Assembly (NCBI GenBank): GCA_024672315.1
Contig: GCA_024672315.1_4714.1
Direction: 5' to 3' (one strand)
Length of the DNA: 64,000 nucleotides
From: a phage
Notes under the pieces: model-generated
Databases searched by the model: none
What the model saw: only the letters and a program-made list of their open reading frames with translations
Told to the model about the DNA's origin: nothing
In this document: in pieces, positions 29,562-51,131 of the stretch
Layout of the letters: the number at the start of each line of letters is the position of its first letter
Numbering within the stretch: the stretch's first letter is position 1
Position numbers and translations under genes: made by a program

Positions 29562-29667
29562 TTGGGACTCCTACGTAGGAAAATCTTGGCGGGTGATCAT
29601 GTCCGCCATTTACCTTCTGAACCGTTGATTCAGAAGTCAAAAGATAACCGGATACCAACGCCATAAA

Positions 29668-29699
29668 CCTTCCTCCAACCCAACAGGGAAGGAGGAAGG
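29668..29699. terminator. GC-rich stem-loop, repeat-family member
   Basis: CCTTCCTCCAACCC-AACA-GGGAAGGAGGAAGG between tandem minus-strand paralog genes. Confidence 0.4.
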
Positions 29700-29709
29700 G
29701 ATATAGTGG

Positions 29710-30999
29710 TTATGCTTTTTCGGTTACAGCATCGAAGTATTTCGCTGCAGCAAATACAGCATCTGCATATTGACGGTTAGCAACACGGAGGATCTTAGCT
29801 GCTAATACTGCACTCAAGCGTGCCATTTCAGAAATGGCGCTTATATAAGGGCGAACGGTTTCACGATCTGCTTCCGGTAGATTGTCGAGCATACCGTCCC
29901 ATTTAGTTTTAATTTTCATACCGTTTAGTTTAGCAGTACGTTCGACAGTACTTGTTAAACTTTCTGTCTGGCGAAAATACGCGGGGTCAACGACACGAAA
30001 CGCGTTAAGATACGAAGTCAGTGCGGCTTTCAATTCGTCGTCGTTATTGAAAATGTTCGCGTTTTCGATACTACCGGTCGCGGTTTCTTCAACTTCGATC
30101 TGAATATTCTTCACGAGCGCGCAGGCCTTAATGGTATCTTTCTCAGCCATAAGGGCGTCAAGACCTTTAACAACATATCGTTTCCCACCGCTTTCTGGTA
30201 GTTTGAGTCCTTTTAACGCAGGCTTGATGGCGTAAATATAATCGTCCAGAATATCGGCAAGTGTCGTCAAATCGGTTAGTTTATTAACTTTCTTGTTAAT
30301 GTCGTCAGTTTGGAGTAGTAAAAAAGCGGATGCTTGTGTGGATGCCGCTAACTGCTCGATATGTTTACGAACCTCCAACGCGTTAACCATTTTTGCGTTA
30401 GGGAACATGCTAATCATATTCCCGGTCGGTTTATTTATTTGTTTGAGGTGACGCTCGCCTTTATTTACAGCGGTTGCAACATCAGTAATTTTTTTATACG
30501 CTACCGCAAGGTTTTTGAAAAGCAGCTGAATCAGCTTACATAACTGTTCAGCCATGTTCGCAATGATTACCCAAACTGCGTATAACGCTTGTGCTGCGCG
30601 TTCTTTAAAGCCTTCCAGCACAATAGCTTGCCCTTCCACCAAACGATCGTCAGCTTGGAACATGTCTTCATCAGACATCCCCAGGTTTGCTGCTGACGTC
30701 GAAGCAATCTGACGGATAAGGGCGACGTCGCTCGCACGTGCTTCCGGGATCGTAGGCGCGATCATGTATGCGGTATCTTCCAGCGTTGCTGAGGTACGCA
30801 CTGCAATTTCAGCCAGTTCGCTAGATTCATCGATCGTCTCGTCGGTGCGTCGAATCACCAACTCAACTTCGTCCTCTTCGATTTCTGCGTTGGGATCATT
30901 TTGCTCCGCTGGAATTGTCGCAAGAAGATCTTCGGCGCTCAGCAAAGCGAGTTCGAATGCGTTTTTATTGACGTTATCAAAAAGAGAGATGCGGGCCAT
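29710..30999 (-). CDS. putative internal head protein paralog (429 aa)
   Basis: AAGGA RBS; acidic AxE-rich N-terminus; family helix motif (AAQALYAVWVIIANMAEQLCKLIQLLFKNL). Confidence 0.75.
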   Translation of the reverse strand: MARISLFDNVNKNAFELALLSAEDLLATIPAEQNDPNAEIEEDEVELVIRRTDETIDESSELAEIAVRTSATLEDTAYMIAPTIPEARASDVALIRQIASTSAANLGMSDEDMFQADDRLVEGQAIVLEGFKERAAQALYAVWVIIANMAEQLCKLIQLLFKNLAVAYKKITDVATAVNKGERHLKQINKPTGNMISMFPNAKMVNALEVRKHIEQLAASTQASAFLLLQTDDINKKVNKLTDLTTLADILDDYIYAIKPALKGLKLPESGGKRYVVKGLDALMAEKDTIKACALVKNIQIEVEETATGSIENANIFNNDDELKAALTSYLNAFRVVDPAYFRQTESLTSTVERTAKLNGMKIKTKWDGMLDNLPEADRETVRPYISAISEMARLSAVLAAKILRVANRQYADAVFAAAKYFDAVTEKA

Positions 31000-31008
31000 G
31001 TTAGTTCC

Positions 31009-32349
31009 TTAACCTTTGGTATAAGCTTTAACGAGAGTGTTGATAAATGAAGTCAGTGCGCGAAGATACTGGTAAGCGAATTGGTTTTCAATACGGTTCT
31101 CTTTACCGCAAAGCAGAATCGCGCGCTTAACGAGCTTAGGATAGATCTCGATGTACGGTTGGTAGCTCGCATCAAAATTCTGCTCGTTGAAGCGTTTCAT
31201 GGTGATTTCCTGGATGCGCTCCATGGTGCGAATTTTATTGCGAGAGAACATCTCAGAGAAAGCACGTCCGCGTTTTGTTACCATCAACAGATCTTTCGCG
31301 AACGTCAGTTGTCGAACGCTACGCAAATCGTCAGGTGTCGGCAGGACGTACGTTTCTGGATCGCTATCCCATTCAACATCTTCAACGACAATATCCAAGT
31401 CGAGGTAACGTTTAACCACATCGATGATATTGTCTTTTGACGCATCGAATTCTTTCAAGAAGACCGCACCGTTGATGTAGCGGATACGTTTTCCGGAAAC
31501 CGTTGGGGTGATAACGTCAGTACCTTCCACGGAACCGCGATTTTCCAGTGTCGATTTGACGGCGTGCAAGAAAGACAGATAATCAACGGGAAGTTTTTCG
31601 ACCTTATCTAAATGGAAGTCGATGATGTTTAATCCTAACCCATCAATAACCGAATGACCATCCGATTTAAGGAACATCTGATTGAAGGTATCGATGTTGC
31701 TTTTCAGTGCGTCTACACCACCAACGTTGTTACGGTTAGGGAAAAGCGTCCGCCATTCTGGTTTAAACACAACCTCTTTATTTTCCTCGTATTTGCCTTT
31801 AGGCATTTGTTCGAGGTCTGCAACGGCTTTCTGAAAATTGCGTGTCTCGTCGTAAACAAGACGGGTAAGCTTCTCGAAGGCTGCTGCCAAGGTCAGGGCA
31901 ATATCAACAATGATATCCCAGATCTTTTTCATGGCTTTTACAACGGTGTCCTTAAACCCTTCAACAACCAAAGCTTCTCCAACCTCAACACGATCGGTTG
32001 GAGTCAGCAATGCTTCGGAGGGCAGACCCAGAGCAATCGATGCGGATTCTTGCATATTACGAACTAATGCAACGTCACTGTAGTTAGCCGATTCGATAGT
32101 CGGAGCAACATCAAAACTGATTTCCCGCAGTGCAGCAACAGCAGGGAAAGCACGATCAAGTGCATCTTCATGTTCGTCGATTGTCGCTAAACGTAATTCA
32201 ACGCCATCAGCATCGATGACTTCAGCGGTCGGCTCCACAGCAAGCGCCTCAGCAACAATAGGATCTTTTTCAAACGCCTCAAGGCTGATATCGCCTTGGG
32301 TCGCAAATAGCGGTATGTGTACCATGTGTTGTCTCCAGTAATGATTCAA
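31009..32349 (-). CDS. putative internal head protein paralog (446 aa)
   Basis: GGAGAC RBS; acidic AxE-rich N-terminus; family helix motif (VVKAMKKIWDIIVDIALTLAAAFEKL). Confidence 0.75.
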   Translation of the reverse strand: MNHYWRQHMVHIPLFATQGDISLEAFEKDPIVAEALAVEPTAEVIDADGVELRLATIDEHEDALDRAFPAVAALREISFDVAPTIESANYSDVALVRNMQESASIALGLPSEALLTPTDRVEVGEALVVEGFKDTVVKAMKKIWDIIVDIALTLAAAFEKLTRLVYDETRNFQKAVADLEQMPKGKYEENKEVVFKPEWRTLFPNRNNVGGVDALKSNIDTFNQMFLKSDGHSVIDGLGLNIIDFHLDKVEKLPVDYLSFLHAVKSTLENRGSVEGTDVITPTVSGKRIRYINGAVFLKEFDASKDNIIDVVKRYLDLDIVVEDVEWDSDPETYVLPTPDDLRSVRQLTFAKDLLMVTKRGRAFSEMFSRNKIRTMERIQEITMKRFNEQNFDASYQPYIEIYPKLVKRAILLCGKENRIENQFAYQYLRALTSFINTLVKAYTKG

Positions 32350-32373
32350 AAGATAAACCTGAGCGGCATAGAA

Positions 32374-32405
32374 CCCTCTCCCAACCCGTCAGGGAAGGGA
32401 GAGGG
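32374..32405. terminator. GC-rich stem-loop, repeat-family member
   Basis: CCCTCTCCCAACCC-GTCA-GGGAAGGGAGAGGG immediately after the highly expressed 32428-33750 gene; flanks GCATAGAA / AATATG. Confidence 0.45.
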
Positions 32406-32427
32406 AATATGTCAGTTTATTAACTGA

Positions 32428-33750
32428 TTACTGCTGTGCTGCGTCAGCCGGTTTCTCAGCCGCTTGGCCGCCGTACTCTTTCAGCATTTTAGCAACGCCA
32501 TCCAGGACAGCGTTACCTGCCTGAACACCGTATTTCATCAGACCAGTCTGCGGGTTCACGTAGCAGGAACGTGCGTCTTTCAGTGCAGACAGTACAGCTT
32601 GAACACGCTGTTTTTCCTGAGCGGAAACTTCGCCTTTCTTAGACAGATCGGCTTCCATATCGTCACCGAATTTAACAGCGTCTTTGAAGCCCTGGGATTT
32701 CTTACCGATGTTGCCTTTCAGCGCCAGCAGTTTGTCAGCCAGTACTTCAACACCGCTAACCGCACCAGCCAGCTGGTTCAGGGACAGGACGGTAGCTTCA
32801 ACTTCTTTTGCTTCGCCGGAGCGTTCCCAGGTTACTTTACCATCATTGGCTTTGAAACCCCAACCTGCCGGGCCAGCAACGTCAGCAATCGCCGGAGCGT
32901 TCAGTTTATCAGTGTATTCGGTGTGGGACTTAGATTTGACTAACTCAACGAATTTATCAGCACGATCGTCAGCAGCCTTCATTGCTTTCTCGAAGGTGTC
33001 AGCGATTTTGGTCGCGCCGGTAACCAGATCGTCGCCACCGATGTAGCCAGAAACGCCGCTACCCAGTTTAACTTTGGTATTTTTAGCAGCGCCTTTACGC
33101 TTGGCGATCATTTCTTTCAGTTTAGCAGCACGTGCTTTCAGTTTGGTTGCGCCGTCGAAGATACGATCCATGAACTTCACGAAGGTTTCCCAGGAAGTTT
33201 TCAGGAAGTTCTTGATGGTTGCCCACAGTTTCTGCCACCATTTTTGTTCTTCCAGGAAGATCATGTTGGTTGCATCGTAACGGGAAGCGGAACCACCGAA
33301 GCTTTCGAAGGACGGCATGGTTTCCGGCATTTTGAAACCGATAGTACCACACAGACGTTTCAGATTACGCATGTGTTCCTGAGCGGTTTGTGCAGACATA
33401 CCACCGTCTTTCAGGTAGCTTTCGGTTGCAACAACGGTTTCCGTCAGTTCATCCATGGCTTCGTCCATGGCTTCTGCGGTTTCGTCGTCTTTTGCAATTT
33501 CGATAACAACAGCATCAACCTGCTCGATATCACCACGAACTTCGATAGCCAGTTCGGTTTCAGCTGCGGTATCTTCAGCGATTTCAGCACGTTCGGTCAG
33601 TTCAGCTACAGCGTTTTCATCCGCTGCTGCAGCATCAGCTGCCGGTTCTGCTTCAACGGTTGCCGCTGCATCCGGATCGATCTCAGCAGCCAGTTGAACC
33701 AGCTGTGCGTTAGATGGATTTGCGACAAGACGATCAAAAATAGAAGGCAT
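32428..33750 (-). CDS. putative abundant head protein paralog (440 aa, Ala-rich)
   Basis: Strong codon bias (second only to the capsid candidate); AAAGGA RBS; very acidic Ala/Glu-rich N-terminus with many AxE/TxE motifs; family helix motif (WQKLWATIKNFLKTSWETFVKFMDRIF). Confidence 0.75.
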   Translation of the reverse strand: MPSIFDRLVANPSNAQLVQLAAEIDPDAAATVEAEPAADAAAADENAVAELTERAEIAEDTAAETELAIEVRGDIEQVDAVVIEIAKDDETAEAMDEAMDELTETVVATESYLKDGGMSAQTAQEHMRNLKRLCGTIGFKMPETMPSFESFGGSASRYDATNMIFLEEQKWWQKLWATIKNFLKTSWETFVKFMDRIFDGATKLKARAAKLKEMIAKRKGAAKNTKVKLGSGVSGYIGGDDLVTGATKIADTFEKAMKAADDRADKFVELVKSKSHTEYTDKLNAPAIADVAGPAGWGFKANDGKVTWERSGEAKEVEATVLSLNQLAGAVSGVEVLADKLLALKGNIGKKSQGFKDAVKFGDDMEADLSKKGEVSAQEKQRVQAVLSALKDARSCYVNPQTGLMKYGVQAGNAVLDGVAKMLKEYGGQAAEKPADAAQQ

Positions 33751-40689: not shown

Positions 40690-43476
40690 TTATCTTACGT
40701 TATTGCTATTCTGCTGTTCGCTGAACCAACCGTACACCTTGAGATCGGTACCGTATTTCAATGCGATATACGCATTCAATGCAGCACAGAACAAAGACAC
40801 GAATGCCCATATCAGCGAAGGATCAACATCTTCCGTTACCACCGGGAGAGTATTATCCGGTTCCCACGATGGAGAACTGTCCATGAACGTCGTGTACCAT
40901 TCCCGCCGTTGTTCTTCAGTGGTAAAGTCGCTATGAGGTTCCAACGCTTCTTTTGCCAGACGTCGATATTCGAACACATACGTTGCGAAAGCCGATGAGT
41001 TACCAGATTCGCCTTCATAGTTCGGATCCACCGCACAACAGAGTTCTGTGGAATCTAACAAAGCAATCGCTTGTGTGATGCTGTCGGCAGTGCCTGCACC
41101 ATAGAGCTCGATAGACCGCGAAAGCTTTTCACAGAACGTATTTAACGCGGCAGGATTGGACACCTGAAGGTCAAGGCCTAATGTCCACGGATAGTTACTG
41201 AACACGCCCGTAAACCGCGGCAGGACACCCAACAGATGTTGTCCGATTACAGCACGGTTATAAACAGCCCGGTTATAGACTTGAAACGCAGCCTCCAAGG
41301 CTTGGTTATAATGACGACGAAGTTCGTCACGCGAGTTGCGGAATCTGTTTGCCGCAAGACTCGTGGCTGCGACGCTACAAACATCGTAATTGGTGGACGA
41401 GAGCACAGTTTCGTTAAGATCGAACGATTCCTGTTTCAACGATCCGCTAACCGCTGCTGCTTCGCTGTTTGCTTTATCGACAACTGTACTCAAAGCGTTG
41501 ATGTAACGCTTAGCCCGGACTTCCAGCCATTGTGCGATACCGAGAACATCCACAGCGGCTTTAGCAAGGTCACGTGCGTTCACGATTTCGTTCTTCAATG
41601 CCCCTAAACCTTTATTCTCAGGCGAAGAGGCTTGTTGACGAATCATGCTGTTCAACATGGTAAGCAGATTATCCAACTCATGTCCACTGACCTTGTTACG
41701 TGCATCGGTAACTGGTCCTTGCAGGAATTTACGACAACCATCGTTGTATCGAATCAGTTTGTCCACATCGATAGATTCGTTCGTGGATTCCTTGAACTGA
41801 TCCTTCAATTCTTCACGGTAGTCATGGATTTCACTTGCGAGATTATCGATAGTGATACCATCGTGTCCAAGAAGAACTTTATTGAAGTTACCTTTCTCGA
41901 ATGCAAGAGCAAGACCTTCACGAATCTTAGCGAGTTTATCCTGATCGAGTTCGCGACCGTTCGATAGCTCTTTCACTTCCGAGCTGATTAGTGCCGCAAC
42001 GTTACCCAGATTGTCGGTAACGCCTTTGAATGTTCCCGACCAGATCGTTCCTGCTTCAGCATATTTCGCAATGGTCTGAATACCGACGGTGTGCAGCGAC
42101 GCTAAACGTTTCTTCGTGCCTTCGGTAAGCAGAGCGTCTTTAGCTCGCGTAAGCTGGCTGTTATTCGCTTCCGCCTGCTGAATCGCCGCTTTCGCACTTC
42201 CATTACGCCAGCTCTTAACCAGCCAATCGACCAAACGTTTTAGGATGTTGACGGTGTATTCCATCGTCCGCCGTAACGTTTCCCACGCGCTTTCTGCGGT
42301 ATAGATGCCGTACCCTTCCTGCACGAGATCGGTACGTGTGTATCCGTCGGCCGCTTCGATTTCTTCTTGCGTTTTATCCCAAAGCTCTTCGCTACGAACA
42401 GCAGTAGCGGTTTCAGATACCGACATAACAAGCTCAGCAACAGCTTCAGCGTAAGTCAGTACGGTACGCACACATTGCACTAACATGCGCTGGTAAACGA
42501 TACGTGCGTTTTGCAGACGTGCGATAACCGCTAAATAACCGATGTTATCAAGATTTTCATCGGTTTGAGCAGATTCAACGCGTTCTAACAGTTGTTTAAC
42601 TAGCGCCGCTGTTTCTGGGTAATCGTTCACGACGTCACGCATGATTCGTGATGCGAAAACCGCAGTACCTAAAACGGTGAGAAGTGTTTTACCGTCCCAT
42701 TCTTTCGGTGCCGCTACCGATTCAGCAGGGATGAGATTTCCCGCTTGGTCGAAGTACGGCATAAGGACATTGATATCAGTCGACGGAACAGCAGTAATTG
42801 CGTTGTACTCTTCATCCACGCCATCGTTGCCAGACGGTTGTAATGCGAGCGCTTGTTCGAGGATTTTGCGGTCAACAGCGTAAAGCGCCGACAGAGCCTG
42901 TGTTACCGCAACCAGATCAACGATCGGCGACCAGAGCTGTGCGAGCTTACCTTCGTATTTCTGTACAGCGATAGCAAGGTCTTCTTTTACGTCTGGATGA
43001 TCGATCAAACCACCCAATGTTTCATGGATGGCAGAAAAACGTTCAGAATGCGCTTGAGTCAATGCGGTAAAATCGTCAACGTACGACGCATTTTCTTCAA
43101 GACGCGTAAGTTCCTGCTCCAGAAGATCTTTTACTTGCGTGGCGGATGCGTTTCTCAACTGTTCCCCGATAATCGCGATGGCTTTATCGACAACACGGCA
43201 GGCTTCATTGAAACCGGTCGTTGAAGGTAACTCGGTCCATAATGCCAGCGGCTTACCTTCCATTGCGTCAGGAAGGGAATATGACAGCATTGCTAGTTGT
43301 TGACGTGATACCTGTTTGTCACGATGTAATGTTTCTTTCAACGCCAGAAGCTCATCAAGACCCACGCTGCTAGGGATCGTGGGATGTGATACGGCGTTGA
43401 TATTTCCTGTCAATGACTCAAGAACCAATAAACCATTTTCAGCGGAAGATAACCCTGCTTTAAGGTATTTGTTCAT
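40690..43476 (-). CDS. large hypothetical protein (928 aa) with C-terminal hydrophobic segment; possible head-protein family member
   Basis: Long ORF; GGAG RBS; helix motif similar to paralog family (AWETLRRTMEYTVNILKRLVDWLVKSW); hydrophobic segment LIWAFVSLFCAALNAYIAL near C-terminus. Confidence 0.8.
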   Translation of the reverse strand: MNKYLKAGLSSAENGLLVLESLTGNINAVSHPTIPSSVGLDELLALKETLHRDKQVSRQQLAMLSYSLPDAMEGKPLALWTELPSTTGFNEACRVVDKAIAIIGEQLRNASATQVKDLLEQELTRLEENASYVDDFTALTQAHSERFSAIHETLGGLIDHPDVKEDLAIAVQKYEGKLAQLWSPIVDLVAVTQALSALYAVDRKILEQALALQPSGNDGVDEEYNAITAVPSTDINVLMPYFDQAGNLIPAESVAAPKEWDGKTLLTVLGTAVFASRIMRDVVNDYPETAALVKQLLERVESAQTDENLDNIGYLAVIARLQNARIVYQRMLVQCVRTVLTYAEAVAELVMSVSETATAVRSEELWDKTQEEIEAADGYTRTDLVQEGYGIYTAESAWETLRRTMEYTVNILKRLVDWLVKSWRNGSAKAAIQQAEANNSQLTRAKDALLTEGTKKRLASLHTVGIQTIAKYAEAGTIWSGTFKGVTDNLGNVAALISSEVKELSNGRELDQDKLAKIREGLALAFEKGNFNKVLLGHDGITIDNLASEIHDYREELKDQFKESTNESIDVDKLIRYNDGCRKFLQGPVTDARNKVSGHELDNLLTMLNSMIRQQASSPENKGLGALKNEIVNARDLAKAAVDVLGIAQWLEVRAKRYINALSTVVDKANSEAAAVSGSLKQESFDLNETVLSSTNYDVCSVAATSLAANRFRNSRDELRRHYNQALEAAFQVYNRAVYNRAVIGQHLLGVLPRFTGVFSNYPWTLGLDLQVSNPAALNTFCEKLSRSIELYGAGTADSITQAIALLDSTELCCAVDPNYEGESGNSSAFATYVFEYRRLAKEALEPHSDFTTEEQRREWYTTFMDSSPSWEPDNTLPVVTEDVDPSLIWAFVSLFCAALNAYIALKYGTDLKVYGWFSEQQNSNNVR

Positions 43477-43557: not shown

Positions 43558-46350
43558 TTACGCTAATTTACCGAAACCGGCTTTCTGTAGTTTCTCGTTG
43601 ATCAGTTTTGCTTCAGCGAAAACATAATCACGATACGCAGTGACTAATCCATCCACCCGTGAACGCAAGGCTTCTTCGAAGCTATACCACGCAGCGATTT
43701 CACGAATCTGTGCGTTGATATAATCAACGGTTGAGCGAAGCTCGGTTGCGTTTTCTTGCGGGATGGCTTTCACCTGGCGAGCAACGTCATTTAAACGACG
43801 GAACTGTGTTTCGATTTCTTTAAACTTACTGTCGGCAAGTTTGCTGAATTCGTCACCGGAACGGGTAAATAACAGATAGCTGTTGCCGTCAAGTGCGGTT
43901 GCTAACTGCTGAAGTACGTTGGTGTCCGGATACACAGGAGTACCGCTTTGCAGTACTTTCTCACCGAATTCCGCGAAGTCCTTCGGCGGTAAGTGTGCAG
44001 ACGTTGTTAACTCGTTGAAACGGAAAGTCAGCGAATTATCATACAGCATCCGGTACGCTTCCATACCCTGTTTCATAGTACCGGCCAGGTTAGCCAGACG
44101 CGGAGCAATCTCGCCTTCTTTAGCGCGTTTCTGGTCTTCTAACGCCCCTTCGAGTTCTTTACACTGGTCGTTCAGATACACGATACGATCGGGACGCAGA
44201 CGACGCATCTCACGAAGAATAGTATCCAGCTTACCTTCCTGGAAATAACCTAACGTTAATGACGTACACGCTTGCTGAAGACGATCGAACACCGGTAAGG
44301 TCACCATCTCCTTACGGATACCATCAACAATCGCAGAAACAGCCGAAAGTTTCTGTTCGGTGGTTAATGGAACGTCAGAGACCGACTTGCTGGGCGCACC
44401 AACAACGTTACGCATTGCGTCGGTATCCTCGGTTTTATCAACCTCTTTACGAACATGCTCATCAGGAACATAAACGTTCGCGTTACGTTTCGCCTGCTTG
44501 ATGGCGTCGTTGGCCGCTTTTTCGGTGGCTGCTACGCTATCAGCACGTTTCTTCAAGAGTTCAATAATCCAGAGCAACAGACGACGAATCGCAGTATAGG
44601 CCGTCGTGATGATGACACCGATAACAGCCATCTTCATGATACCGAACGATTCCATGGTCGGCTCTAATGCCTGGTCTGGCATATACCGTTCACGCAGTTC
44701 CAGATAGATCTGCTCATCTGGTTTGCTGATCTCACCACGATGCGAAGTCCGATAGATGGCTTCGTCAATCTCAACAAGATCTTTGCGTGCCTGACGATCG
44801 GATTCTGTTAAGTAAGCACAACCGGATACATCATCTTCGAAGCTTAAGAATTTGAAGAAGTCGCTGACATCGATCTTGATCTTCTTCGTTTCATTGTCAA
44901 CGTTAATGAAATCCGTTTTACGAGACTGCTGTTGAATCTTAATATCCTTTATCGGTTTAAGCGCTTTGTCTTTTAATGCCTGCATGATCTGTTTCCAGCT
45001 GGCATCGCGTTCAAGAACAAGGAAATAGTTCTTGAGTTCGAATGCGCGATAGCGGGCAACAAGTTGTTCTACCTGGACATGAGCGAGTTGTACGTCCATC
45101 AGCCAACGCGACAGCGCAGAAACCAAACGGCTATACGCAAGCAGCGTCTGGTACGTCAGCTTCATGTGTTTCTCGTAGAGCTCGATGTCTCCGCCCTGGA
45201 TGTCGGCTGTCGGGTTCATTTCCTTCGTTGCTTTGAAGACTTGTTCGGCTTCATTCAGCATCTGCTCGAACTTGACTTCATTGAACGCGTTGAATGGTTC
45301 GGCCAGTTCGTTCATCCGATCGTGCAGTTCGCGAACCCAAGCTTCTTTGTGATTACGAATGACCGCATCAGCGTGGAGTTCGGTTTGATGTTTCTGTACC
45401 CATTCTTCAATGATATCCGCAGCTGCAACAACGCCCGTGTTGTCAGAAATCAATGGAATGACGTTAGAGAGCGTACCCGCACATGCTGGTGTTTTCCAAT
45501 GATCGTTAAGCGTGTTGCGGAACGTAATGATGTCCGTCATAGACGTAGTGATATCGAGGAACGTGTTACCGTTACGACTCATGCTTGTGATGTTTGTGGC
45601 AAACGTCTTTTGTTGTTCTACAACGAATGGAATCAACGCCATCAACCAATCAGCAATACATTTTGCTTTTTCTTTCAGGTTTTTGTCGGCGATTTCTTTG
45701 AGATTAATTGCGCCGCCGTAACCTGCAAGTTCGTTATACACATCGTTCAAGGTCATCTGCGCGTCAAGCATTTCTTTGAAACGCGGATAATCTTCCCCTA
45801 ACGCATCGATGATATCCTGGATAACGTCGTCGGTTGTAGCGATAAATTTCTTCGTGTCGACTTTAGATTTCCAGATTATTTTCACCGCTTCTTTCATAAC
45901 GGTGAACATGATCTGCCAAATACGCTTAATAAGTTCCCAGACTTTCTTCGCACCATCGACAAACAGTTTAGAGACCTTGGCAACGAATCCTTCCTGCACC
46001 AATTCAACGCCGTTACGTGATGGGATTTCCGTGAAGAAAGCATCCGGCAGTTGTTTCGGGAATGCGTCACCAAGACGCATACGTAGTTCCGGTACATCAG
46101 CACGAGAAATACCGCGTGTTACTAATTGTTCGTGAAGACGAACGTTTTCTTCACCGGCAGCCACGAATTCGTCAACATCGAAGGAGACCATTGTTTCCTG
46201 ATCTTCGGTGGTAACGACGCTTGAACCATCGCTGGTCTGGATGTCCTCGTCAGGGAACGCCATGAGCATACCGTGACGCATTTCAACCACTCCGTAATCG
46301 GTTGCTAAACCGAATTCGTTGTGATCGGGGGTAATAACTGGAATACTCAT
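43558..46350 (-). CDS. large hypothetical protein (930 aa) with paralog-family N-terminal region and internal hydrophobic segment
   Basis: AAGGAG RBS 7 nt upstream of ATG; N-terminal region alignable by eye with the 28-34 kb paralogs (AKKVWELIKRIWQIMFTVMKEAVKIIW); hydrophobic stretch MKMAVIGVIITTAYTAIRRLLLWIIELL. Confidence 0.8.
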   Translation of the reverse strand: MSIPVITPDHNEFGLATDYGVVEMRHGMLMAFPDEDIQTSDGSSVVTTEDQETMVSFDVDEFVAAGEENVRLHEQLVTRGISRADVPELRMRLGDAFPKQLPDAFFTEIPSRNGVELVQEGFVAKVSKLFVDGAKKVWELIKRIWQIMFTVMKEAVKIIWKSKVDTKKFIATTDDVIQDIIDALGEDYPRFKEMLDAQMTLNDVYNELAGYGGAINLKEIADKNLKEKAKCIADWLMALIPFVVEQQKTFATNITSMSRNGNTFLDITTSMTDIITFRNTLNDHWKTPACAGTLSNVIPLISDNTGVVAAADIIEEWVQKHQTELHADAVIRNHKEAWVRELHDRMNELAEPFNAFNEVKFEQMLNEAEQVFKATKEMNPTADIQGGDIELYEKHMKLTYQTLLAYSRLVSALSRWLMDVQLAHVQVEQLVARYRAFELKNYFLVLERDASWKQIMQALKDKALKPIKDIKIQQQSRKTDFINVDNETKKIKIDVSDFFKFLSFEDDVSGCAYLTESDRQARKDLVEIDEAIYRTSHRGEISKPDEQIYLELRERYMPDQALEPTMESFGIMKMAVIGVIITTAYTAIRRLLLWIIELLKKRADSVAATEKAANDAIKQAKRNANVYVPDEHVRKEVDKTEDTDAMRNVVGAPSKSVSDVPLTTEQKLSAVSAIVDGIRKEMVTLPVFDRLQQACTSLTLGYFQEGKLDTILREMRRLRPDRIVYLNDQCKELEGALEDQKRAKEGEIAPRLANLAGTMKQGMEAYRMLYDNSLTFRFNELTTSAHLPPKDFAEFGEKVLQSGTPVYPDTNVLQQLATALDGNSYLLFTRSGDEFSKLADSKFKEIETQFRRLNDVARQVKAIPQENATELRSTVDYINAQIREIAAWYSFEEALRSRVDGLVTAYRDYVFAEAKLINEKLQKAGFGKLA

Positions 46351-46787
46351 GCATTCTCTCCTTGCAGTGCGTTAGCGAAAGCTGTTGCAAGTTGTGCAAC
46401 CAGTTTCGGATCGACGCCTTCGATAACGTCAGGAAGCCCTGCGGTTTCTTGGTCACGAACAGCAGCTGCTAATAACAGCATGGTTTCAGGTGCGGTCGGC
46501 TCATGCACCATGCGGTAACGCAGGCACCAGAAGTAGCGAGCAACGTCTAACGCATCAGCCAGCCCAATAACCAGTACCTTGTTCAGCTTATCCAACCCTT
46601 CACGGATTTTAGGGAGATGCTCGCGAACGAAAATGCTATCTGCGGTCAGATCTTCTTTTTCAGCGAATACCGGCATGCTGTAACCAGCAATGTAACCTGC
46701 GGCAATACTTAATGCGCGGGTCTGTTGTTCGGCCGGGAAATCACGAACCAGGTCTTTCAGCTGAACGGCGAAATCAGAAATATTCAT
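46347..46787 (-). CDS. hypothetical protein (146 aa)
   Basis: AAAGGA RBS; overlaps downstream gene start by 4 nt. Confidence 0.65.
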   Translation of the reverse strand: MNISDFAVQLKDLVRDFPAEQQTRALSIAAGYIAGYSMPVFAEKEDLTADSIFVREHLPKIREGLDKLNKVLVIGLADALDVARYFWCLRYRMVHEPTAPETMLLLAAAVRDQETAGLPDVIEGVDPKLVAQLATAFANALQGENA

Positions 46788-46819: not shown

Positions 46820-48130
46820 TTAGGCGATAATGGAATCAAGAGTCGCTGCGGTTTTGAACAGATCGCTGTTCATTGTAGAAGAAAGGGCTTGCTGAATTTC
46901 TTCCTGTTTAACCGCCTTACGAACCCCAGGACGAAGGGCGATAGTCACCATTTGCATGAACGTACGGTTGTTGTTCATTTCTTTCAGTGTATCATCGATT
47001 GTTTTAATCGTGTCTAGCGTAGTTGAACGGATATCGTTAGGGAGATCGCGATCTTTCAGGCGTATAATCAGATCCTGTTTGATCTTACGGAATCGTTCCA
47101 TATCGTTATCGTAAATGTTGTATGTTGGATCTAACCAAACTGCAAGCGCCATAGCGGCAACAAATATTGCCATACCGAGAATATTAACCGAGGTGAAACT
47201 GATTGCAATCAGAATAGCCACGGCGGCATCTTTAATGAAGGAGAGCCAGAACATCGTTTTGGACTTCATGGAGTCTTTGCTATAAAGCCGATACATTTTA
47301 GCAAGCCCGCTAACGAGATACTCCCCACCACCATGACGCGTAGCGAACTGATCAGCCATGAATTCGGAAGCAACGTCGGTATATCGTCCAGCGTTATTTA
47401 CATTTCGTAATTGCATCGCTTTGTTAGATACGTAAACCGTGTACCAGACACTACCATCGTCTGAATCACTGATTTTATTTACGTCGACGTTGGTATCCAG
47501 CGTTTTGTTTAACGCTTTAGCCAGTTCGATACGTTTTACCTTATCGGTTGTCCCCAACAGTTCACGCTGCACGGTCATGATTGAGGCTTCGACACGAACC
47601 GTTTCCGACAATGTTTCGAGGAAAGTAAATGCGTGCCCGATTTCATGCAGCATTATGGCTGCTTTTTCTTCCGGAAGAAAGGGTTCTGTCGCTGTTAGCA
47701 GTTCATACGTGATGGCAGAACGAATCTTCAACTCTTCAAAGATACCGTAAACACGACCTTTTTCTAAATCGACGTAACCGACAGGCACATCTTTAATCTT
47801 CTTAAGGAGTGCGACACCATCAGCACCGCGCATCCATAACCGATGATAGTCTGCCAGGATCGTGTTGTTTGTCGAAATATCCGGCGGGTACACGTAGGCA
47901 TTCATCTGGCCCATTTTCACGTCGACCGAGAATTCGATGTTCAACCCCGTATAGCGTTTAACCATCTCGGTTAAATGTCCGTCCTTGAAAACGTTTAAAA
48001 CATCTTTTTTATCCAGTCCCTGTTTGCTTCTGAAGAACTCGGTCATTTCCTTGAACAAGGAACCATCCTGAAACTTGATGGCCTCCATCGTTAATTCGTC
48101 ATGACCATACACGCGTTGTAGTAATGACAT
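46820..48130 (-). CDS. membrane-associated M48-like zinc metallopeptidase (436 aa)
   Basis: HEXXH motif (MLHEIGHAF) followed about 80 aa later by an E-x-x-A-D motif (SEFMADQFA), the zinc-ligand arrangement of HtpX/Ste24-type M48 peptidases (from memory); long hydrophobic segment FWLSFIKDAAVAILIAISFTSVNILGMAIFVAAMALAVWL downstream. Confidence 0.6.
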   Translation of the reverse strand: MSLLQRVYGHDELTMEAIKFQDGSLFKEMTEFFRSKQGLDKKDVLNVFKDGHLTEMVKRYTGLNIEFSVDVKMGQMNAYVYPPDISTNNTILADYHRLWMRGADGVALLKKIKDVPVGYVDLEKGRVYGIFEELKIRSAITYELLTATEPFLPEEKAAIMLHEIGHAFTFLETLSETVRVEASIMTVQRELLGTTDKVKRIELAKALNKTLDTNVDVNKISDSDDGSVWYTVYVSNKAMQLRNVNNAGRYTDVASEFMADQFATRHGGGEYLVSGLAKMYRLYSKDSMKSKTMFWLSFIKDAAVAILIAISFTSVNILGMAIFVAAMALAVWLDPTYNIYDNDMERFRKIKQDLIIRLKDRDLPNDIRSTTLDTIKTIDDTLKEMNNNRTFMQMVTIALRPGVRKAVKQEEIQQALSSTMNSDLFKTAATLDSIIA

Positions 48131-48351
48131 TGTACACTCTCTAAATTTACGTAAATTTAAGGGCTAATGGATCGGCTGGCCGCACCAATCACAATGTGTC
48201 CGCTGCTATGCAACGGCATTCATAGAAATACCTTTTGACGGTAACATCACCGTTCATACCCCAAGCAATAAGAGTGGTCGGTTAAAAACAACAGAACGTG
48301 GGGATGATATAGAAAATCACCTTTTAACACTTATTACGAGTTTATCAAGCC

Positions 48352-49851
48352 ATGAGCGAACAAGAACGAAAACCTAAGAAGAAACTGCTCGGTATTCAAT
48401 GTCGACACATCAGTTATAACGAAGCGAACGATGGCAGCAAGAACGACCTCATGATCGCAAAAGAGATCATGTTCTTTGATGATAACACACAAGCGACGAA
48501 TCTTCGCTTCTTCGAGAATTACAAACGTCCGTTTTGGGTGACGGTAGAGAGTAAACGCAAGAACAAATATAAAAAGGAAAGCGAGAAGCTCTCGCACGTG
48601 CGTCGCTACGATGTCCGTCAAAGTGAACTGGTTGAAAAGATCAGTTCGGTGCTTTATAAAAGACGTGCTGATGATAACACCCGTCTACAGCAGCTTGCAC
48701 GGAGTCCATACCTCTATGGCACGGACGTTAGCGCCAGCTGTTATTTAAAAACTCAGTACAACACAAAATGGCCGGAATACGTCGATAAATTACCCGCTTC
48801 CATTGCCTGTTTCGATATCGAAACCGACGTTGTCCATGGACACGGTAAGATCGTCTGTATGTCTATTACAATGGGATACAATGCGATACTTTGCTATACC
48901 AAGGACTTCGTTGGTCATATTCCGAATGCCATTGAGAAAACCCATGAGAAGATTCGATATTACCTGGCCGAACGTCTGAACACCAAAGAAGATCCTCACG
49001 CGTTCGAAAAATATCAGTACGATGTGCGAATCGTAGAAAGTCCGGCACAAGCGGTCATCCAATGCATGCAGAAGGTTCACGAATGGCAGCCGGATTATCT
49101 CCTTGGCTGGAATATCGCGTTCGATATTCCGCGCATGCTCCAGGCACTGAACGAAGAAGGGTATCGTCCCGAGGATGTTTTCTCCGATCCTCGTGTACCA
49201 CCTAAATATCGCATTGCTCGCTGGGTACCACCGAAGACCGACAAGGTATCTGCTTCAGGGCGTAAAACCAACCTTACCCTTGAGCAAACCTGGCCGATGT
49301 TTTATACGATGGCTACGTATCAGGTTATGGATGCGATGTGTGGTTATAAGTTCGTTCGTTTAGGAAGACCGGATGAGGGACGCTATTCACTCGATGCGGT
49401 ATTAGAGCGAAATAAATGCCATACGAAATTAAAAGCAATTCCTGGTACAGAAGGGTTCACGGAGCTCGCCTGGCACGAAGAGATGCAAACGAACCATCAA
49501 ATCGACTACGGCGTATATAACCTTTGGGATAACCAGGGTATCGAGGCGTTGGACCAGAAAACAAAAGACTATTCGATGACCATCCCTATTCGTTTAGCGG
49601 CGTCGGATTTGAAAGATTTCAGTTCTAACCCTAAACGTATCTGCGATAAACTTTTCTTCGTTTATCTTAACCGTGGGGAAGTCATGGGATGCACCGCCGA
49701 CGACATGACCCAGGAAGAAGATAAGTGGGTTATCTCACGAACCGGACATATCGTCACATTGCCGTGCGATCTCATGGCGGACAACGGCATCCATCTCTTC
49801 TGGGATATGCCTAATTTAAGGAGCTATATTCGATTATTTGTTGCGGATTAA
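48352..49851 (+). CDS. family-B DNA polymerase N-terminal/3'-5' exonuclease domain protein (499 aa, no polymerase domain)
   Basis: Exo I-like motif CFDIETD, Exo II-like GWNIAFDIP and an Exo III-like Y-x3-D (YGVYNLWD) in canonical order and spacing; no polymerase A/B/C motifs before the stop; no clear SD upstream of ATG. Confidence 0.6.
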   Translation: MSEQERKPKKKLLGIQCRHISYNEANDGSKNDLMIAKEIMFFDDNTQATNLRFFENYKRPFWVTVESKRKNKYKKESEKLSHVRRYDVRQSELVEKISSVLYKRRADDNTRLQQLARSPYLYGTDVSASCYLKTQYNTKWPEYVDKLPASIACFDIETDVVHGHGKIVCMSITMGYNAILCYTKDFVGHIPNAIEKTHEKIRYYLAERLNTKEDPHAFEKYQYDVRIVESPAQAVIQCMQKVHEWQPDYLLGWNIAFDIPRMLQALNEEGYRPEDVFSDPRVPPKYRIARWVPPKTDKVSASGRKTNLTLEQTWPMFYTMATYQVMDAMCGYKFVRLGRPDEGRYSLDAVLERNKCHTKLKAIPGTEGFTELAWHEEMQTNHQIDYGVYNLWDNQGIEALDQKTKDYSMTIPIRLAASDLKDFSSNPKRICDKLFFVYLNRGEVMGCTADDMTQEEDKWVISRTGHIVTLPCDLMADNGIHLFWDMPNLRSYIRLFVAD

Positions 49852-49940: not shown

Positions 49941-51131
49941 ATGGAAAAATCTATACATACTCAAACTGGAACTATTGACTATCGCGATTCAGCATATTTG
50001 CCGTACACAAATCATCGTTATCGTATATTTGAAGATGGCGAGTTGTACGACTATAAAGAAGATAGGGTCGTCCCTTACGAAGTTGTAGACGGTGTCCCTT
50101 ATGTTGAAATCGATTGGTATAGAGGCATTGGAAAATACGATCTCGGTATGATCATTCTCACCGTTCTTGAACGGGTTGCTTTACCAGATCACCTTTACGA
50201 TGAAATTGAATCGTTGTTTGTGGACGGAGATCCGACTAACTTTTCGTATAGCAATCACATCTACCGTTTCCGTAATGGGCCGTTAGAAGTTGAGGGATTC
50301 GAAGGTTATTGTTATATTCCGTTTGCATCTCGTTACGCGATAAATAAAGAAGGACATTGTATTAGTCTTCTTTCGTTGGATCCTATCACGTGGACGAAAA
50401 CGGTTCAGCAAGGCACACGTCTTGGCGGATACGCTTATCGTAAAGTGGTTCCTGATAGCGGGTTTACACCGCAGTTGTATCGTCACCGAGCTATCATGTT
50501 AGCGTTTACGAGATATGATGCTAACGTTGTGAACTTAACCGTAAATCATAAAAACGGAATTAAAGGTGACGATTGGTTTGACAACCTCGAATGGGCGACA
50601 TATGCCGAGAACAATCAACATGCTCGTATGGCAGGGTTGTGTATAGGTACGTCAAAACCTGTTTTGGTTTATGATTACCGTGCACGAATCGAACGTCGTT
50701 TTAATAGTATCGCAGAAGCGGAACGTGCTTATCCGTACGTACCGAAAGGACGTTTCAAATGGTGGGTAAACAATCCCCCGAAACGTATCCCAGAATGCGA
50801 TTTATACATCAAGTTTGCCACGGACAATACGCCTTGGCCAGAGTGGAAACTTGGAGAAGATCGTCGTGTCGAGGACACCGATGGTCGCGGTATTCTCGCT
50901 ATTAATAAAGAGACGAACGAACGACATGTGTTTCCATCAGTAACTGCTGCCGCAAATGCGTTAGGAATCTCCTGGATTACCGTAAGACGTCATTGCGATC
51001 GTCGTGCAGTACCTACGAAACAGCCTTGGTGTTTTCGTTATGCTGATGATATTGCCGCTATGCCCGATTTCGATGTTAGTAAATTAGTTCCTAAGAAGAA
51101 GCGTGTATTTAATGTTCCATTAGAACGATAA
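49941..51131 (+). CDS. HNH homing endonuclease (396 aa)
   Basis: HNH signature NHKNGIKGDDWFDNLEWATYAENNQHA (H-N-G ... N-L-E-W ... E-N-N-x-H pattern of HNH_3-type homing endonucleases); GAGG RBS; lies immediately upstream of group I intron core elements. Confidence 0.7.
   Translation: MEKSIHTQTGTIDYRDSAYLPYTNHRYRIFEDGELYDYKEDRVVPYEVVDGVPYVEIDWYRGIGKYDLGMIILTVLERVALPDHLYDEIESLFVDGDPTNFSYSNHIYRFRNGPLEVEGFEGYCYIPFASRYAINKEGHCISLLSLDPITWTKTVQQGTRLGGYAYRKVVPDSGFTPQLYRHRAIMLAFTRYDANVVNLTVNHKNGIKGDDWFDNLEWATYAENNQHARMAGLCIGTSKPVLVYDYRARIERRFNSIAEAERAYPYVPKGRFKWWVNNPPKRIPECDLYIKFATDNTPWPEWKLGEDRRVEDTDGRGILAINKETNERHVFPSVTAAANALGISWITVRRHCDRRAVPTKQPWCFRYADDIAAMPDFDVSKLVPKKKRVFNVPLER

What the first reader, a model, noticed from the sequence alone, without database searches (positions are those of the whole stretch)
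46820..48130. Phage-encoded membrane-anchored M48-like zinc metalloprotease
Seen: HEIGH motif followed about 80 residues later by SEFMADQFA, then a long hydrophobic segment. Established (from memory): the HEXXH plus downstream E-x-x-A-D arrangement is the zinc-ligand pattern of HtpX/Ste24/Oma1-type M48 peptidases. Its position at the boundary of the virion module, diverging from the polymerase-exonuclease gene, makes its role unclear.
Basis: partly seen in the sequence, partly recalled or inferred. Interest (0 to 1): 0.5.

Follow-up and report, generated by a model that had tools for sequence, protein, structure and literature searches.

The report
Head-packaged M48-like zinc protease
This gene encodes a zinc-protease-like protein with a greasy, membrane-type hairpin that nucleus-forming jumbo phages pack inside their heads; the family is already catalogued as a core virion gene and has been noticed as protease-like, but what it cuts, and where, is still unknown.

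Summary
ORF 46820..48130(-), 436 aa, has HEIGH (aa 162-166), EFMAD (aa 256-260) and a 45-residue hydrophobic stretch (aa 292-336). The window is a close relative of E. coli jumbo phage Goslar. The ORF is the ortholog of Goslar gp067 (95.6% aa), PhiKZ gp84 and SPN3US gp45, and is Chimalliviridae core gene cg22.

It is a head-internal virion protein. Published mass spectrometry puts Goslar gp067 at about 48 copies per virion. A semi-tryptic peptide starts at A17, matching the mapped prohead-protease site ASE-20 of SPN3US gp45. PhiKZ gp84 tolerates no transposon insertions.

The hairpin is conserved as hydrophobicity, not sequence. "Membrane-anchored" is therefore inferred, not shown.

My best guess (about 0.4) is an ejected protease that inserts into the inner membrane or early-infection vesicle. 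The main rival (about 0.3) is a capsid-maturation clean-up peptidase. Iyer et al. (2021) noted a conserved zincin-like peptidase in PhiKZ-like phages. Interest is moderate.

The parts
46820..48130 (-). Complete CDS, 436 aa plus stop. Ortholog of Goslar gp067, PhiKZ gp84, SPN3US gp45 and RAY gp286 (Chimalliviridae core gene cg22); phrog_2767.
   Evidence: phrog_2767, E=1.2e-79; 93.8% nt identity to Goslar; 95.6% aa identity to Goslar; PhiKZ gp84, E=3e-23; SPN3US gp45, E=6e-26; cg22.
48083..48130 (-). N-terminal propeptide, aa 1-16 (MSLLQRVYGHDELTME). It is predicted to be removed by the prohead protease after T-M-E16, and probably acts as a capsid-targeting signal.
   Evidence: E16 is at least 90% conserved. 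The P3 residue is A, S, T or G in 184 of 191 relatives. The Goslar virion peptide AIKFQDGSLFKEMTEFFR starts at A17. The aligned site ASE-20 is experimentally cleaved in SPN3US gp45. The model has pLDDT below 50 for residues 1-16.
47276..47953 (-). Gluzincin (M48-like) catalytic domain, about aa 60-285: a five-stranded sheet, the active-site helix and the glutamate helix.
47633..47647 (-). HEIGH, aa 162-166: two zinc-ligand histidines and the catalytic glutamate.
   Evidence: Invariant in 107 sequences. The peptide AAIMLHEIGHAFTFLETLSETVR was seen in Goslar virions.
47351..47365 (-). EFMAD, aa 256-260: the third zinc ligand Glu in the M48-type E-x-x-A-D motif.
   Evidence: E256 and D260 are invariant. 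The same E-x-x-A-D is invariant in E. coli HtpX, BepA, LoiP and YcaL. It aligns to ZMPSTE24 E415.
47123..47257 (-). Hydrophobic helical hairpin, aa 292-336, with two helices and a short S-V-N turn. Candidate membrane-insertion element.
   Evidence: Present in 182 of 195 relatives at the same place. Median length 35-37 aa. Sequence not conserved.
46823..47113 (-). C-terminal all-helical domain, aa 340-436, of unknown function. It starts with the conserved Y340-D341 ... R346 motif.
   Evidence: No significant family or structure match.
46347..46787 (-). Downstream gene with a 32-nt gap: ortholog of Goslar gp066, a vertex-binding-complex protein (PhiKZ gp85 by structure).
   Evidence: BLASTP to PhiKZ gp85 finds nothing, so this equivalence rests on the published structures.
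43558..46350 (-). Next gene, overlapping by 4 nt: ortholog of Goslar gp065, a vertex-binding-complex protein (PhiKZ gp86, SPN3US gp47 position). It has one hydrophobic segment at aa 570-588.
48131..48351 (.). Divergent intergenic region between the protease operon and the DNA polymerase gene. It is 100% identical in a relative whose protease body is only 49% identical.

Best explanation
The gene encodes a divergent M48-like (gluzincin) zinc metallopeptidase that is a core, head-internal virion protein of nucleus-forming jumbo phages (Chimalliviridae).

Proposed course of events, with the status of each step:
1. It is made late, together with two vertex-binding-complex proteins. This is inferred from gene order.
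2. A short N-terminal propeptide takes it into the prohead. There the phage serine prohead protease removes the propeptide after T-M-E16. This is shown in SPN3US, supported by one peptide in Goslar, and inferred here.
3. Roughly 50 mature copies, with an intact HEIGH...E active site, stay in the DNA-filled head. This is shown for Goslar.
4. On infection it is ejected with the DNA and the other head proteins. Its hydrophobic hairpin of about 35-45 residues then inserts into the host inner membrane or the early-infection (EPI) vesicle derived from it. There the protease domain cleaves host or co-ejected proteins at the membrane surface. This step is entirely inferred.

Confidence that it is a head-packaged, processed M48-like zincin is about 0.85-0.9. 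Confidence in the post-ejection membrane mechanism is about 0.4.
For: Identity:
- The window is 93.8% nt identical to Goslar.
- The protein is 95.6% aa identical to Goslar gp067.
- It matches PhiKZ gp84, annotated 'structural head protein'.
- It matches SPN3US gp45.
- It is core gene cg22.

Protease:
- H162, E163, H166, E256 and D260 are invariant over 107 sequences.
- PF01435 is the only recurrent Pfam family.
- The family profile aligns ZMPSTE24 at both motifs.
- hhalign against E. coli M48 paralogs gives 86% probability.
- BFVD hits include entries named 'Zincin protease', 'Peptidase M48' and 'BepA'.

In the head and processed:
- Goslar gp067 has 46.8% coverage, 19 peptides and about 48 (32-76) copies per virion.
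- A semi-tryptic peptide starts at A17.
- SPN3US gp45 is cleaved at ASE-20 in both virions and tailless heads. That site aligns to E16.
- The motif is conserved across the family.

Importance: PHIKZ084 has 0 insertions in 1242 bp, against a genome mean of one per 42 bp.

Membrane and post-ejection role:
- The hairpin is kept in 182 of 195 relatives as hydrophobicity only, with variable length and indels. That is typical of lipid-facing segments and has no obvious use in a lipid-free capsid lumen.
- By established knowledge, characterised M48 enzymes (HtpX, Ste24, Oma1, BepA) all act at membranes.
- Chimalliviruses eject many head proteins and deliver DNA into a membrane vesicle.
- In a near-identical phage the flanking polB and gp66 genes are 100% and 99% aa identical. 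The protease body is only 29-53% identical and the hairpin 28%. Such a hot spot is expected of a host-facing protein rather than a housekeeping maturation enzyme.
- In gp245-minus SPN3US proheads almost all virion proteins are present, yet the propeptides stay intact. The zincin is therefore not an independent maturation protease.
Against: - No experiment shows zinc binding, proteolysis, ejection or membrane insertion for any member.
- The protein's own Pfam score is below threshold.
- The hairpin is short for two full membrane spans, with a median of 35 aa.
- The hairpin could instead serve prohead assembly, which takes place on the inner membrane in SPN3US.
- The cleavage evidence in Goslar is a single peptide with two missed cleavages and a 13.7 ppm mass error, from a truncated table.
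- The copy-number estimate is rough. The same table overestimates modelled vertex proteins by up to about 9-fold.
- The transposon result could be polar on gp85 and gp86.
- The divergence hot spot rests on one clade and could be a neutral recombination scar.
Confidence: 0.4

Rival explanations
1. Capsid-maturation clean-up peptidase. The zincin is a zymogen inside the prohead and is switched on when the serine prohead protease removes its 16-residue propeptide. It then degrades scaffold and the long (111-254 aa) propeptide fragments into pieces small enough to leave the shell. Its presence in mature virions is a leftover.
For: - It sits in the head together with the substrates.
- Head maturation in PhiKZ and SPN3US involves extensive proteolysis with long propeptides that are cut further and cleared.
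- Iyer et al. 2021 proposed this role for the conserved zincin-like peptidase of group 1 jumbo phages.
- Propeptide removal is a common way to activate metalloprotease zymogens. This also reconciles the rival with the lack of processing in gp245-minus proheads.
- The essentiality signal fits.
Against: - All mapped cleavage sites in SPN3US (14 sites in 9 proteins) fit the A-x-E specificity of the serine protease. No second specificity has been seen.
- A conserved hydrophobic hairpin has no role in this model.
- A housekeeping enzyme acting on conserved phage substrates would not be expected to have its catalytic body at 29-53% identity between phages whose neighbouring genes are 99-100% identical.
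- About 50 intact copies with the active-site peptide are retained in the virion.
Confidence: 0.3
2. Membrane-recruitment or release factor for prohead assembly. The hairpin dips into the cytoplasmic leaflet of the inner membrane, where these phages build proheads. It concentrates the protein, and perhaps the nascent prohead core, there. The protease then helps detach the prohead.
For: [quoted passage not shown]
- A hairpin of about 35 aa suits reversible, monotopic insertion.
- The gene is co-operonic with internal vertex proteins.
Against: - The hairpin remains in the mature protein. Only 16 N-terminal residues are removed, so cleavage cannot release a tether.
- About 50 copies end up inside a closed shell, which is hard to reconcile with a membrane-embedded state.
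- Release depends on gp245, not shown for this protein.
Confidence: 0.1
3. Essentially structural head protein, for example an unmodelled accessory of the vertex-binding complex at 55 copies. Its zincin fold is retained but is not used for catalysis.
For: - The estimated 48 (32-76) copies is close to 55, which is 5 x 11 non-portal vertices.
- Its operon partners gp66 and gp65 are vertex-binding-complex proteins.
- Unassigned helical density surrounds that complex in Goslar.
Against: - All four catalytic or zinc residues plus D260 are invariant at 26% mean column identity. That is not expected of a dead enzyme.
- The protein was not found in either high-resolution capsid map.
- The copy-number estimates are too rough to distinguish 55 from other values.
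Confidence: 0.07

Closest known systems
Goslar gp067 / PhiKZ gp84 / SPN3US gp45 / RAY gp286 (Chimalliviridae core gene cg22; phrog_2767)
   Same: Orthologs: 95.6%, 27%, 26% and about 27% aa identity over nearly full length. They share the same motifs, hairpin, N-terminal cleavage motif and gene neighbourhood. They are head proteins by mass spectrometry, and SPN3US gp45 is cleaved at ASE-20.
   Different: Nothing essential; this is another member. The function of the whole family is listed as 'unknown' or 'virion structural protein'.
Peptidase family M48 (HtpX, Ste24/ZMPSTE24, Oma1, BepA/LoiP/YcaL)
   Different: - This protein falls below the Pfam gathering score.
- The H-to-E spacing is 94, against 83 in HtpX.
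- The hydrophobic hairpin follows the catalytic domain rather than preceding or enclosing it.
- It has an extra C-terminal helical domain.
- It has an N-terminal propeptide cut by a phage serine protease.
- It is stored in a lipid-free virus head.
T4 internal proteins with a capsid-targeting sequence (IPI-III, Alt)
   Same: A propeptide of 10-20 residues directs the protein into the prohead core. The prohead protease cuts it off after a Glu, and the mature protein is ejected with the DNA. This is established knowledge. The comparison to T4 capsid-targeting sequences was made for SPN3US gp45 in PMC5694885.
   Different: T4 internal proteins are small soluble proteins or an ADP-ribosyltransferase. 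None is a metalloprotease or carries a hydrophobic hairpin. Targeting by this propeptide has not been tested.
'Zincin protease' proteins of Bacillus jumbo phage AR9, and the 'conserved uncharacterized zincin-like metallopeptidase' of group 1 jumbo phages (Iyer et al. 2021)
   Same: The predicted structures match (Foldseek E=2.4e-7 and 1.5e-4). The 2021 survey describes a zincin peptidase conserved among the structural genes of PhiKZ-like phages.
   Different: Only 12-16% identity to the AR9 proteins. I could not verify that the accession quoted in the survey (AMR59696.1) belongs to this family.
Membrane-active ejection proteins of other phages (T7 gp14/15/16, P22 gp7/16/20, T5 Pb2)
   Same: Virion-stored proteins with hydrophobic segments that enter the envelope on infection (established knowledge). 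This is the functional analogy behind the best explanation.
   Different: No sequence or fold relation was found. Ejection of this protein is not shown.

Membership tests
Peptidase M48 (Pfam PF01435; MEROPS M48) | HEXXH zinc-binding and catalytic motif | tested here: met
   HEIGH at aa 162-166. H, E and H are invariant in 107 relatives.
Peptidase M48 (Pfam PF01435; MEROPS M48) | Third zinc ligand Glu in an E-x-x-A-D motif downstream of HEXXH | tested here: met
   EFMAD at aa 256-260. E256 and D260 are invariant. The same motif is invariant in E. coli HtpX, BepA, LoiP and YcaL (E222, A225, D226). It aligns with ZMPSTE24 E415. The spacing is 94, against 83 in HtpX.
Peptidase M48 (Pfam PF01435; MEROPS M48) | Score at or above the curated Pfam gathering threshold | tested here: not met
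   10.8 bits, E=0.45, against a cutoff of 20.3 for this protein. Among relatives, 24 of 107 hit at E<=0.01, with a best E of 2.5e-5. NCBIfam gives no hit.
Peptidase M48 (Pfam PF01435; MEROPS M48) | Gluzincin fold closest to solved M48 structures | tested here: met
Peptidase M48 (Pfam PF01435; MEROPS M48) | Canonical domain architecture (transmembrane helices before or around the catalytic domain, or a periplasmic TPR partner) | tested here: not met
   The only hydrophobic element is a hairpin 36 residues after the third ligand, followed by a helical domain.
Peptidase M48 (Pfam PF01435; MEROPS M48) | Zinc-dependent peptidase activity | not testable with these tools
   No biochemical data for any member were found in the literature searches.
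Chimalliviridae core gene cg22 (PhiKZ gp84 family, phrog_2767) | Full-length sequence homology | tested here: met
   phrog_2767 E=1.2e-79 over aa 12-432. PhiKZ gp84 E=3e-23. SPN3US gp45 E=6e-26. cg22 table. 3,656 cluster representatives at E<=0.001.
Chimalliviridae core gene cg22 (PhiKZ gp84 family, phrog_2767) | Conserved neighbourhood: divergent from polB, followed by a small and a larger head gene | tested here: met
   The window, Goslar, PhiKZ, SPN3US, RAY, and the most distant metagenomic members P0054 and P0033.
Substrates of the PhiKZ-type prohead serine protease (gp175 / gp245) | Cleavage C-terminal to Glu in an S/A/G-x-E motif, giving an N-terminal propeptide | tested here: inconclusive
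   The motif here is T-M-E16|A, and T is outside the published S/A/G set. Across the family the P3 residue is A, S, T or G in 184 of 191. One Goslar virion peptide starts at A17. The aligned site is proven in SPN3US gp45. There is no direct data for this phage.
Ejection (E) proteins of chimalliviruses | Demonstrated transfer from the virion into the host cell | not testable with these tools
   Injection was shown for other PhiKZ and Goslar head proteins. gp84 and gp67 were not among those tested.

The most novel reading that the evidence does not exclude
The protein is an ejected protease with a monotopic hairpin. It works on the membrane of the early-phage-infection (EPI) vesicle or the inner membrane it derives from. 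It might help to shape, stabilise or open that vesicle, or remove host membrane proteins from it. Its fast-changing catalytic-plus-hairpin module would then reflect an arms race with the host. That would make it the first enzyme assigned to the membrane stage of the chimallivirus life cycle.
Probability: 0.2. Interest if true: 0.8.

Novelty: new variant of a known kind. Interest (0 to 1): 0.45.

Why it matters
Nucleus-forming jumbo phages first deliver their DNA into a membrane vesicle and only later into the protein "nucleus". Which injected proteins build, service or open that vesicle is an open question. This family is a core gene and apparently essential. It is present at tens of copies per head. 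It combines a conserved protease active site with a membrane-type hairpin. That makes it one of the few virion proteins with a concrete, mutable catalytic site, so its role in head maturation versus early infection can be tested directly. If it is only a maturation peptidase, it would still add a second protease to the jumbo-phage head assembly pathway. For this window itself the finding is an ortholog of a catalogued gene, so the immediate novelty is limited.

Tried and rejected
Searches that gave nothing useful:
- Single-sequence search of PDB sequences: no hit.
- NCBIfam: no hit.
- Foldseek against the PDB: only helical-repeat noise, no E<=0.001.
- The afdb50 library was unavailable.
- Literature searches for PhiKZ gp84 / PHIKZ084, chimallivirus + metalloprotease, jumbo phage + M48, and PhiKZ + zinc metalloprotease found nothing relevant.
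- Thomas et al. 2012 (PhiKZ head proteolysis) is not held, so I could not check whether gp84's cleavage or copy number was reported there.
- The Goslar peptide table is truncated and sorted alphabetically. The absence of the uncleaved N-terminal peptide and of C-terminal peptides is therefore uninformative.
- Sigma-70 promoter and terminator scans were not informative: there were fewer promoter-like sites than in shuffles, and these phages use their own RNA polymerases.

Alternatives considered and rejected:
- M50 and Zincin_1: only 1-3 sporadic weak hits.
- DUF6232 (E=0.051 over the hairpin), read as a hydrophobic-composition match.

Other dead ends:
- The N-terminal 811 aa of the 1237-aa fusion protein P0193 show no similarity to any window ORF.
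- BLASTP between the downstream gene and PhiKZ gp85 finds nothing. That equivalence is taken from the published structures.
- The accession AMR59696.1 quoted by Iyer et al. could not be tied to this family, because no supplement is held.
Full report
**1. What is there**

The ORF at 46820..48130 on the minus strand starts with ATG, has a GAGAG box 8 nt upstream, and encodes 436 aa. HEIGH lies at aa 162-166 and EFMAD (within SEFMADQFA) at aa 256-260. A hydrophobic stretch at aa 292-337 reaches a Kyte-Doolittle 19-residue mean of 2.31.

Otherwise the description is exact.

In about 30,000 aa of six-frame ORF fragments from the window there are three HExxH. Only this one is followed by ExxAD.

**2. 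Where the window comes from and which gene this is**

The 3 kb around the gene is 93.8% identical to Escherichia phage vB_EcoM_Goslar, a nucleus-forming jumbo phage. The protein relates to known genes as follows:

| Relative | Similarity |
|---|---|
| Goslar gp067 | 95.6% aa identity |
| phrog_2767 (function unknown) | E=1.2e-79 |
| PhiKZ gp84, annotated "structural head protein" | E=3e-23 |
| SPN3US gp45 | E=6e-26 |

Prichard et al. list Goslar gp067 = PhiKZ gp084 = RAY gp286 as core gene cg22 of the Chimalliviridae.

tblastn finds a homolog in 268 phage records, mostly labelled "putative virion structural protein". Two are auto-annotated "beta-barrel assembly-enhancing protease", which is BepA, an M48 enzyme. 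An exhaustive profile search finds 3,656 cluster representatives at E<=0.001. The top 150 are nearly all 410-460 aa and align over their full length.

**3. Is it a protease of the M48 kind?**

Alone, the protein fails. Pfam Peptidase_M48 scores E=0.45, 10.8 bits against a cutoff of 20.3. There is no NCBIfam hit and no single-sequence PDB hit.

At family level the picture is consistent:
- In 31 relatives, and then in 107 relatives with 26% mean column identity, H162, E163, G165, H166, E256 and D260 are invariant.
- 188 of 195 representatives carry both motifs, at a spacing of 83-99.
- PF01435 is hit by 19 of 31 members at E<=1 and by 24 of 107 at E<=0.01, with a best E of 2.5e-5. The next family, SprT-like, gets 3.
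- The family profile hits human ZMPSTE24 (E=0.014). It aligns "EEVLAVLGHELGH" and the third-ligand segment "EFQADAFA" in the right order.
- hhalign against an alignment of E. coli HtpX, BepA, LoiP and YcaL gives 86% probability over the strand-plus-HEXXH segment. In that alignment H139, E140, H143, E222, A225 and D226 are invariant.
- An AlphaFold2 model (pLDDT 77.8, pTM 0.79) shows a five-stranded sheet and a long helix carrying HEIGH. A second long helix carries E256.
- Foldseek against the PDB finds nothing. Against viral models it finds the chimallivirus orthologs and then "Zincin protease [Bacillus phage AR9]". Several entries named "Peptidase M48" or "BepA" from uncultured myoviruses follow.

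I conclude that this is a divergent gluzincin whose nearest relatives are M48 enzymes. It works like one as far as the active site goes. It does not meet the curated threshold or the usual architecture, so I call it M48-like rather than a member.

**4. It is a processed, head-internal virion protein**

Basu et al. (bioRxiv 2026) detected Goslar gp067 in CsCl-purified virions. It had 19 peptides and 46.8% coverage, including the active-site peptide AAIMLHEIGHAFTFLETLSETVR. The estimate is about 48 copies per virion, range 32-76.

The same table contains AIKFQDGSLFKEMTEFFR, assigned to gp067. Its N-terminus follows E16, which is a non-tryptic end.

[quoted passage not shown] This was seen in every data set, from virions and from tailless heads. 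BLASTP aligns that Glu with E16 here.

Across the family, E16 is at least 90% conserved. The P3 residue is A, S, T or G in 184 of 191 sequences and P1' is mostly A or S. The median cut position is residue 12. Residues 1-16 are disordered in the model.

The SPN3US authors compared this short propeptide with the capsid-targeting sequences of T4 internal proteins.

Caveats:
- The Goslar evidence is one peptide with two missed cleavages.
- The table is truncated.
- T at P3 lies outside the published S/A/G set.

**5. Genetic importance and neighbourhood**

In the PhiKZ transposon screen, PHIKZ084 has 0 qualifying insertions in 1242 bp, against a genome mean of one per 42 bp. The raw data show only 9 low-read sites. 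gp85 and gp86 downstream are also empty, so polarity cannot be excluded.

The gene order is polB (divergent), protease, a small gene, a larger gene, then convergent gp87-like and gp88-like genes. It is kept in Goslar, PhiKZ, SPN3US, RAY and the two most distant metagenomic members examined.

The two downstream genes encode vertex-binding-complex proteins on the inner face of the 11 non-portal vertices. Goslar gp66 has 110 modelled copies and gp65 has 55. They correspond to PhiKZ gp85 and gp86.

The protease was not modelled in either capsid structure. Its estimated 48 copies is close to 55. However, the same label-free estimates overshoot gp59 by about 3.5-fold and gp66 by about 9-fold. The coincidence is only a lead.

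Goslar has unassigned helical density around the complex.

**6. The hydrophobic hairpin**

A hydrophobic segment follows the third ligand by a median of 38 residues in 182 of 195 representatives. Its median length is 35-37 aa, with an interquartile range of 32-40. It has a small polar or Gly/Pro turn in the middle.

Its sequence and length are the least conserved part of the alignment.

The N-terminal flank is net positive in 67% of sequences. The C-terminal flank is neutral.

This looks like a lipid-facing helical hairpin that would put both soluble domains on the same side. At about 15-20 residues per arm it may be re-entrant rather than fully spanning. No membrane is present in the virion.

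**7. A divergence hot spot**

In a Goslar-like contig (L011) the DNA is 97.8% identical to the window from polB, through the intergenic region, to about nt 100 of the protease gene. It then becomes unalignable until about codon 350, and resumes at 83%.

At protein level against the L011 phage and its close variants:

| Gene or region | aa identity |
|---|---|
| polB | 100% |
| gp66-like | 99% |
| gp65-like | 85% |
| Protease aa 1-33 | 100% |
| Protease aa 34-150 | 29-32% |
| Protease aa 151-290 | 53-54% |
| Protease hairpin (aa 291-337) | 19-28% |
| Protease C-terminal domain (aa 338-436) | 62-63% |

Another variant, P0005, differs almost only in the hairpin (60% identity there).

So the catalytic-plus-hairpin module is exchanged or evolves fast among otherwise near-identical phages. 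The propeptide and first helix are fixed.

**8. Mechanism**

Shown or well supported:
- An M48-like active site under strong purifying selection.
- Packaging in the head.
- N-terminal processing at a conserved Glu.
- Tens of copies per virion.
- Core-gene status and probable essentiality.

Inferred: what the enzyme does. I favour, at about 0.4, a post-ejection role at a membrane. The reasons:
- The hairpin has no use in a lipid-free lumen.
- Characterised M48 enzymes act at membranes (established knowledge).
- These phages eject many head proteins and deliver DNA into a membrane vesicle.
- The hot spot of section 7 suggests a host-facing protein.
- In gp245-minus SPN3US proheads almost all virion proteins are present but the propeptides stay intact. 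The zincin is therefore not an independent maturation protease.

The main rival, at about 0.3, is the role proposed by Iyer et al. 2021 for the "conserved, uncharacterized zincin-like metallopeptidase" of group 1 jumbo phages: extra cleavages during maturation. It survives if the zincin is a zymogen activated when gp245 removes its propeptide.

[quoted passage not shown] The hairpin might recruit the protein to that site. But the hairpin is not removed on maturation.

A purely structural role, at about 0.07, is unlikely given the invariant catalytic residues.

**9. Novelty and verdict**

The gene is an ortholog of a catalogued core virion gene. A zincin-like peptidase has been noted in a comparative-genomics survey of these phages (accession not verified). 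Several automatic annotations also call relatives proteases.

No paper in the held library assigns an M48-like fold, a hairpin or a function to gp84, gp67 or gp45.

Relative to M48 enzymes it is a new variant. It has a different architecture, activation or targeting by a viral serine protease, and storage in a virus head.

Interest is moderate (0.45). This is not a surprise to specialists as a gene. It is a concrete, testable handle on either head maturation or the membrane stage of early infection.

Noticed in passing
window 47080-48030 (codons ~35-350 of the protease gene), compared with L011:4100-5050: A divergence hot spot. A Goslar-like contig is 97.8% nt identical from polB to about nt 100 of the gene, and 83% again from about codon 350 onward. 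In between, the protease body is only 29-53% aa identical and the hairpin 28%. polB and the gp66-like gene are 100% and 99% aa identical. Another variant (P0005) differs almost only in the hairpin.
   Followed up: partly
window 48352-49851 (+) and 49941-51131 (+): The DNA polymerase gene here is only a 499-aa N-terminal (exonuclease-part) fragment. It is followed directly by an HNH/NUMOD1 homing-endonuclease gene (phrog_59, E=3e-18), as in Goslar gp068/gp069. This looks like a split polymerase with a mobile endonuclease next to it. In the related contig L011 the endonuclease region is only partly alignable.
   Followed up: no
window 40690-43476 (-) and 43558-46350 (-): Two large head genes of 928 and 930 aa (Goslar gp64 and gp65). 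Each has a single hydrophobic segment, at aa 886-907 and aa 570-588. They show only weak mutual similarity (best E=0.014). gp65 is a vertex-binding-complex protein. gp64 is an unmodelled protein at about 110 copies per virion. The gene at the gp65 position in SPN3US (gp47) was proposed to be an ejection protein with a transmembrane helix.
   Followed up: partly
P0193 (metagenomic protein, 1237 aa): One family member is fused behind an unrelated 811-aa N-terminal part. That part carries two hydrophobic segments. The G-M-E|S cleavage motif is retained at the junction, so the prohead protease could separate the two parts. The N-terminal part matches no ORF of this window. A gene-calling or assembly artefact was not excluded.
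   Followed up: partly
window 27170-33750 (-): A run of five similar-sized ORFs (385-446 aa) at the position of Goslar gp53-gp58. Basu et al. describe that region as a PF12699 inner-body / injected protein paralog cluster. I did not check the ORFs individually.
   Followed up: no
P0002 and P0016 (relatives of the window protein): Close relatives of this phage protein (97% and 49% identity) sit on contigs of about 237-239 kb. Those contigs were deposited under Salmonella enterica assemblies. Goslar-like jumbo phages are therefore present in Salmonella sequencing data, as contaminating or carried phage.
   Followed up: no
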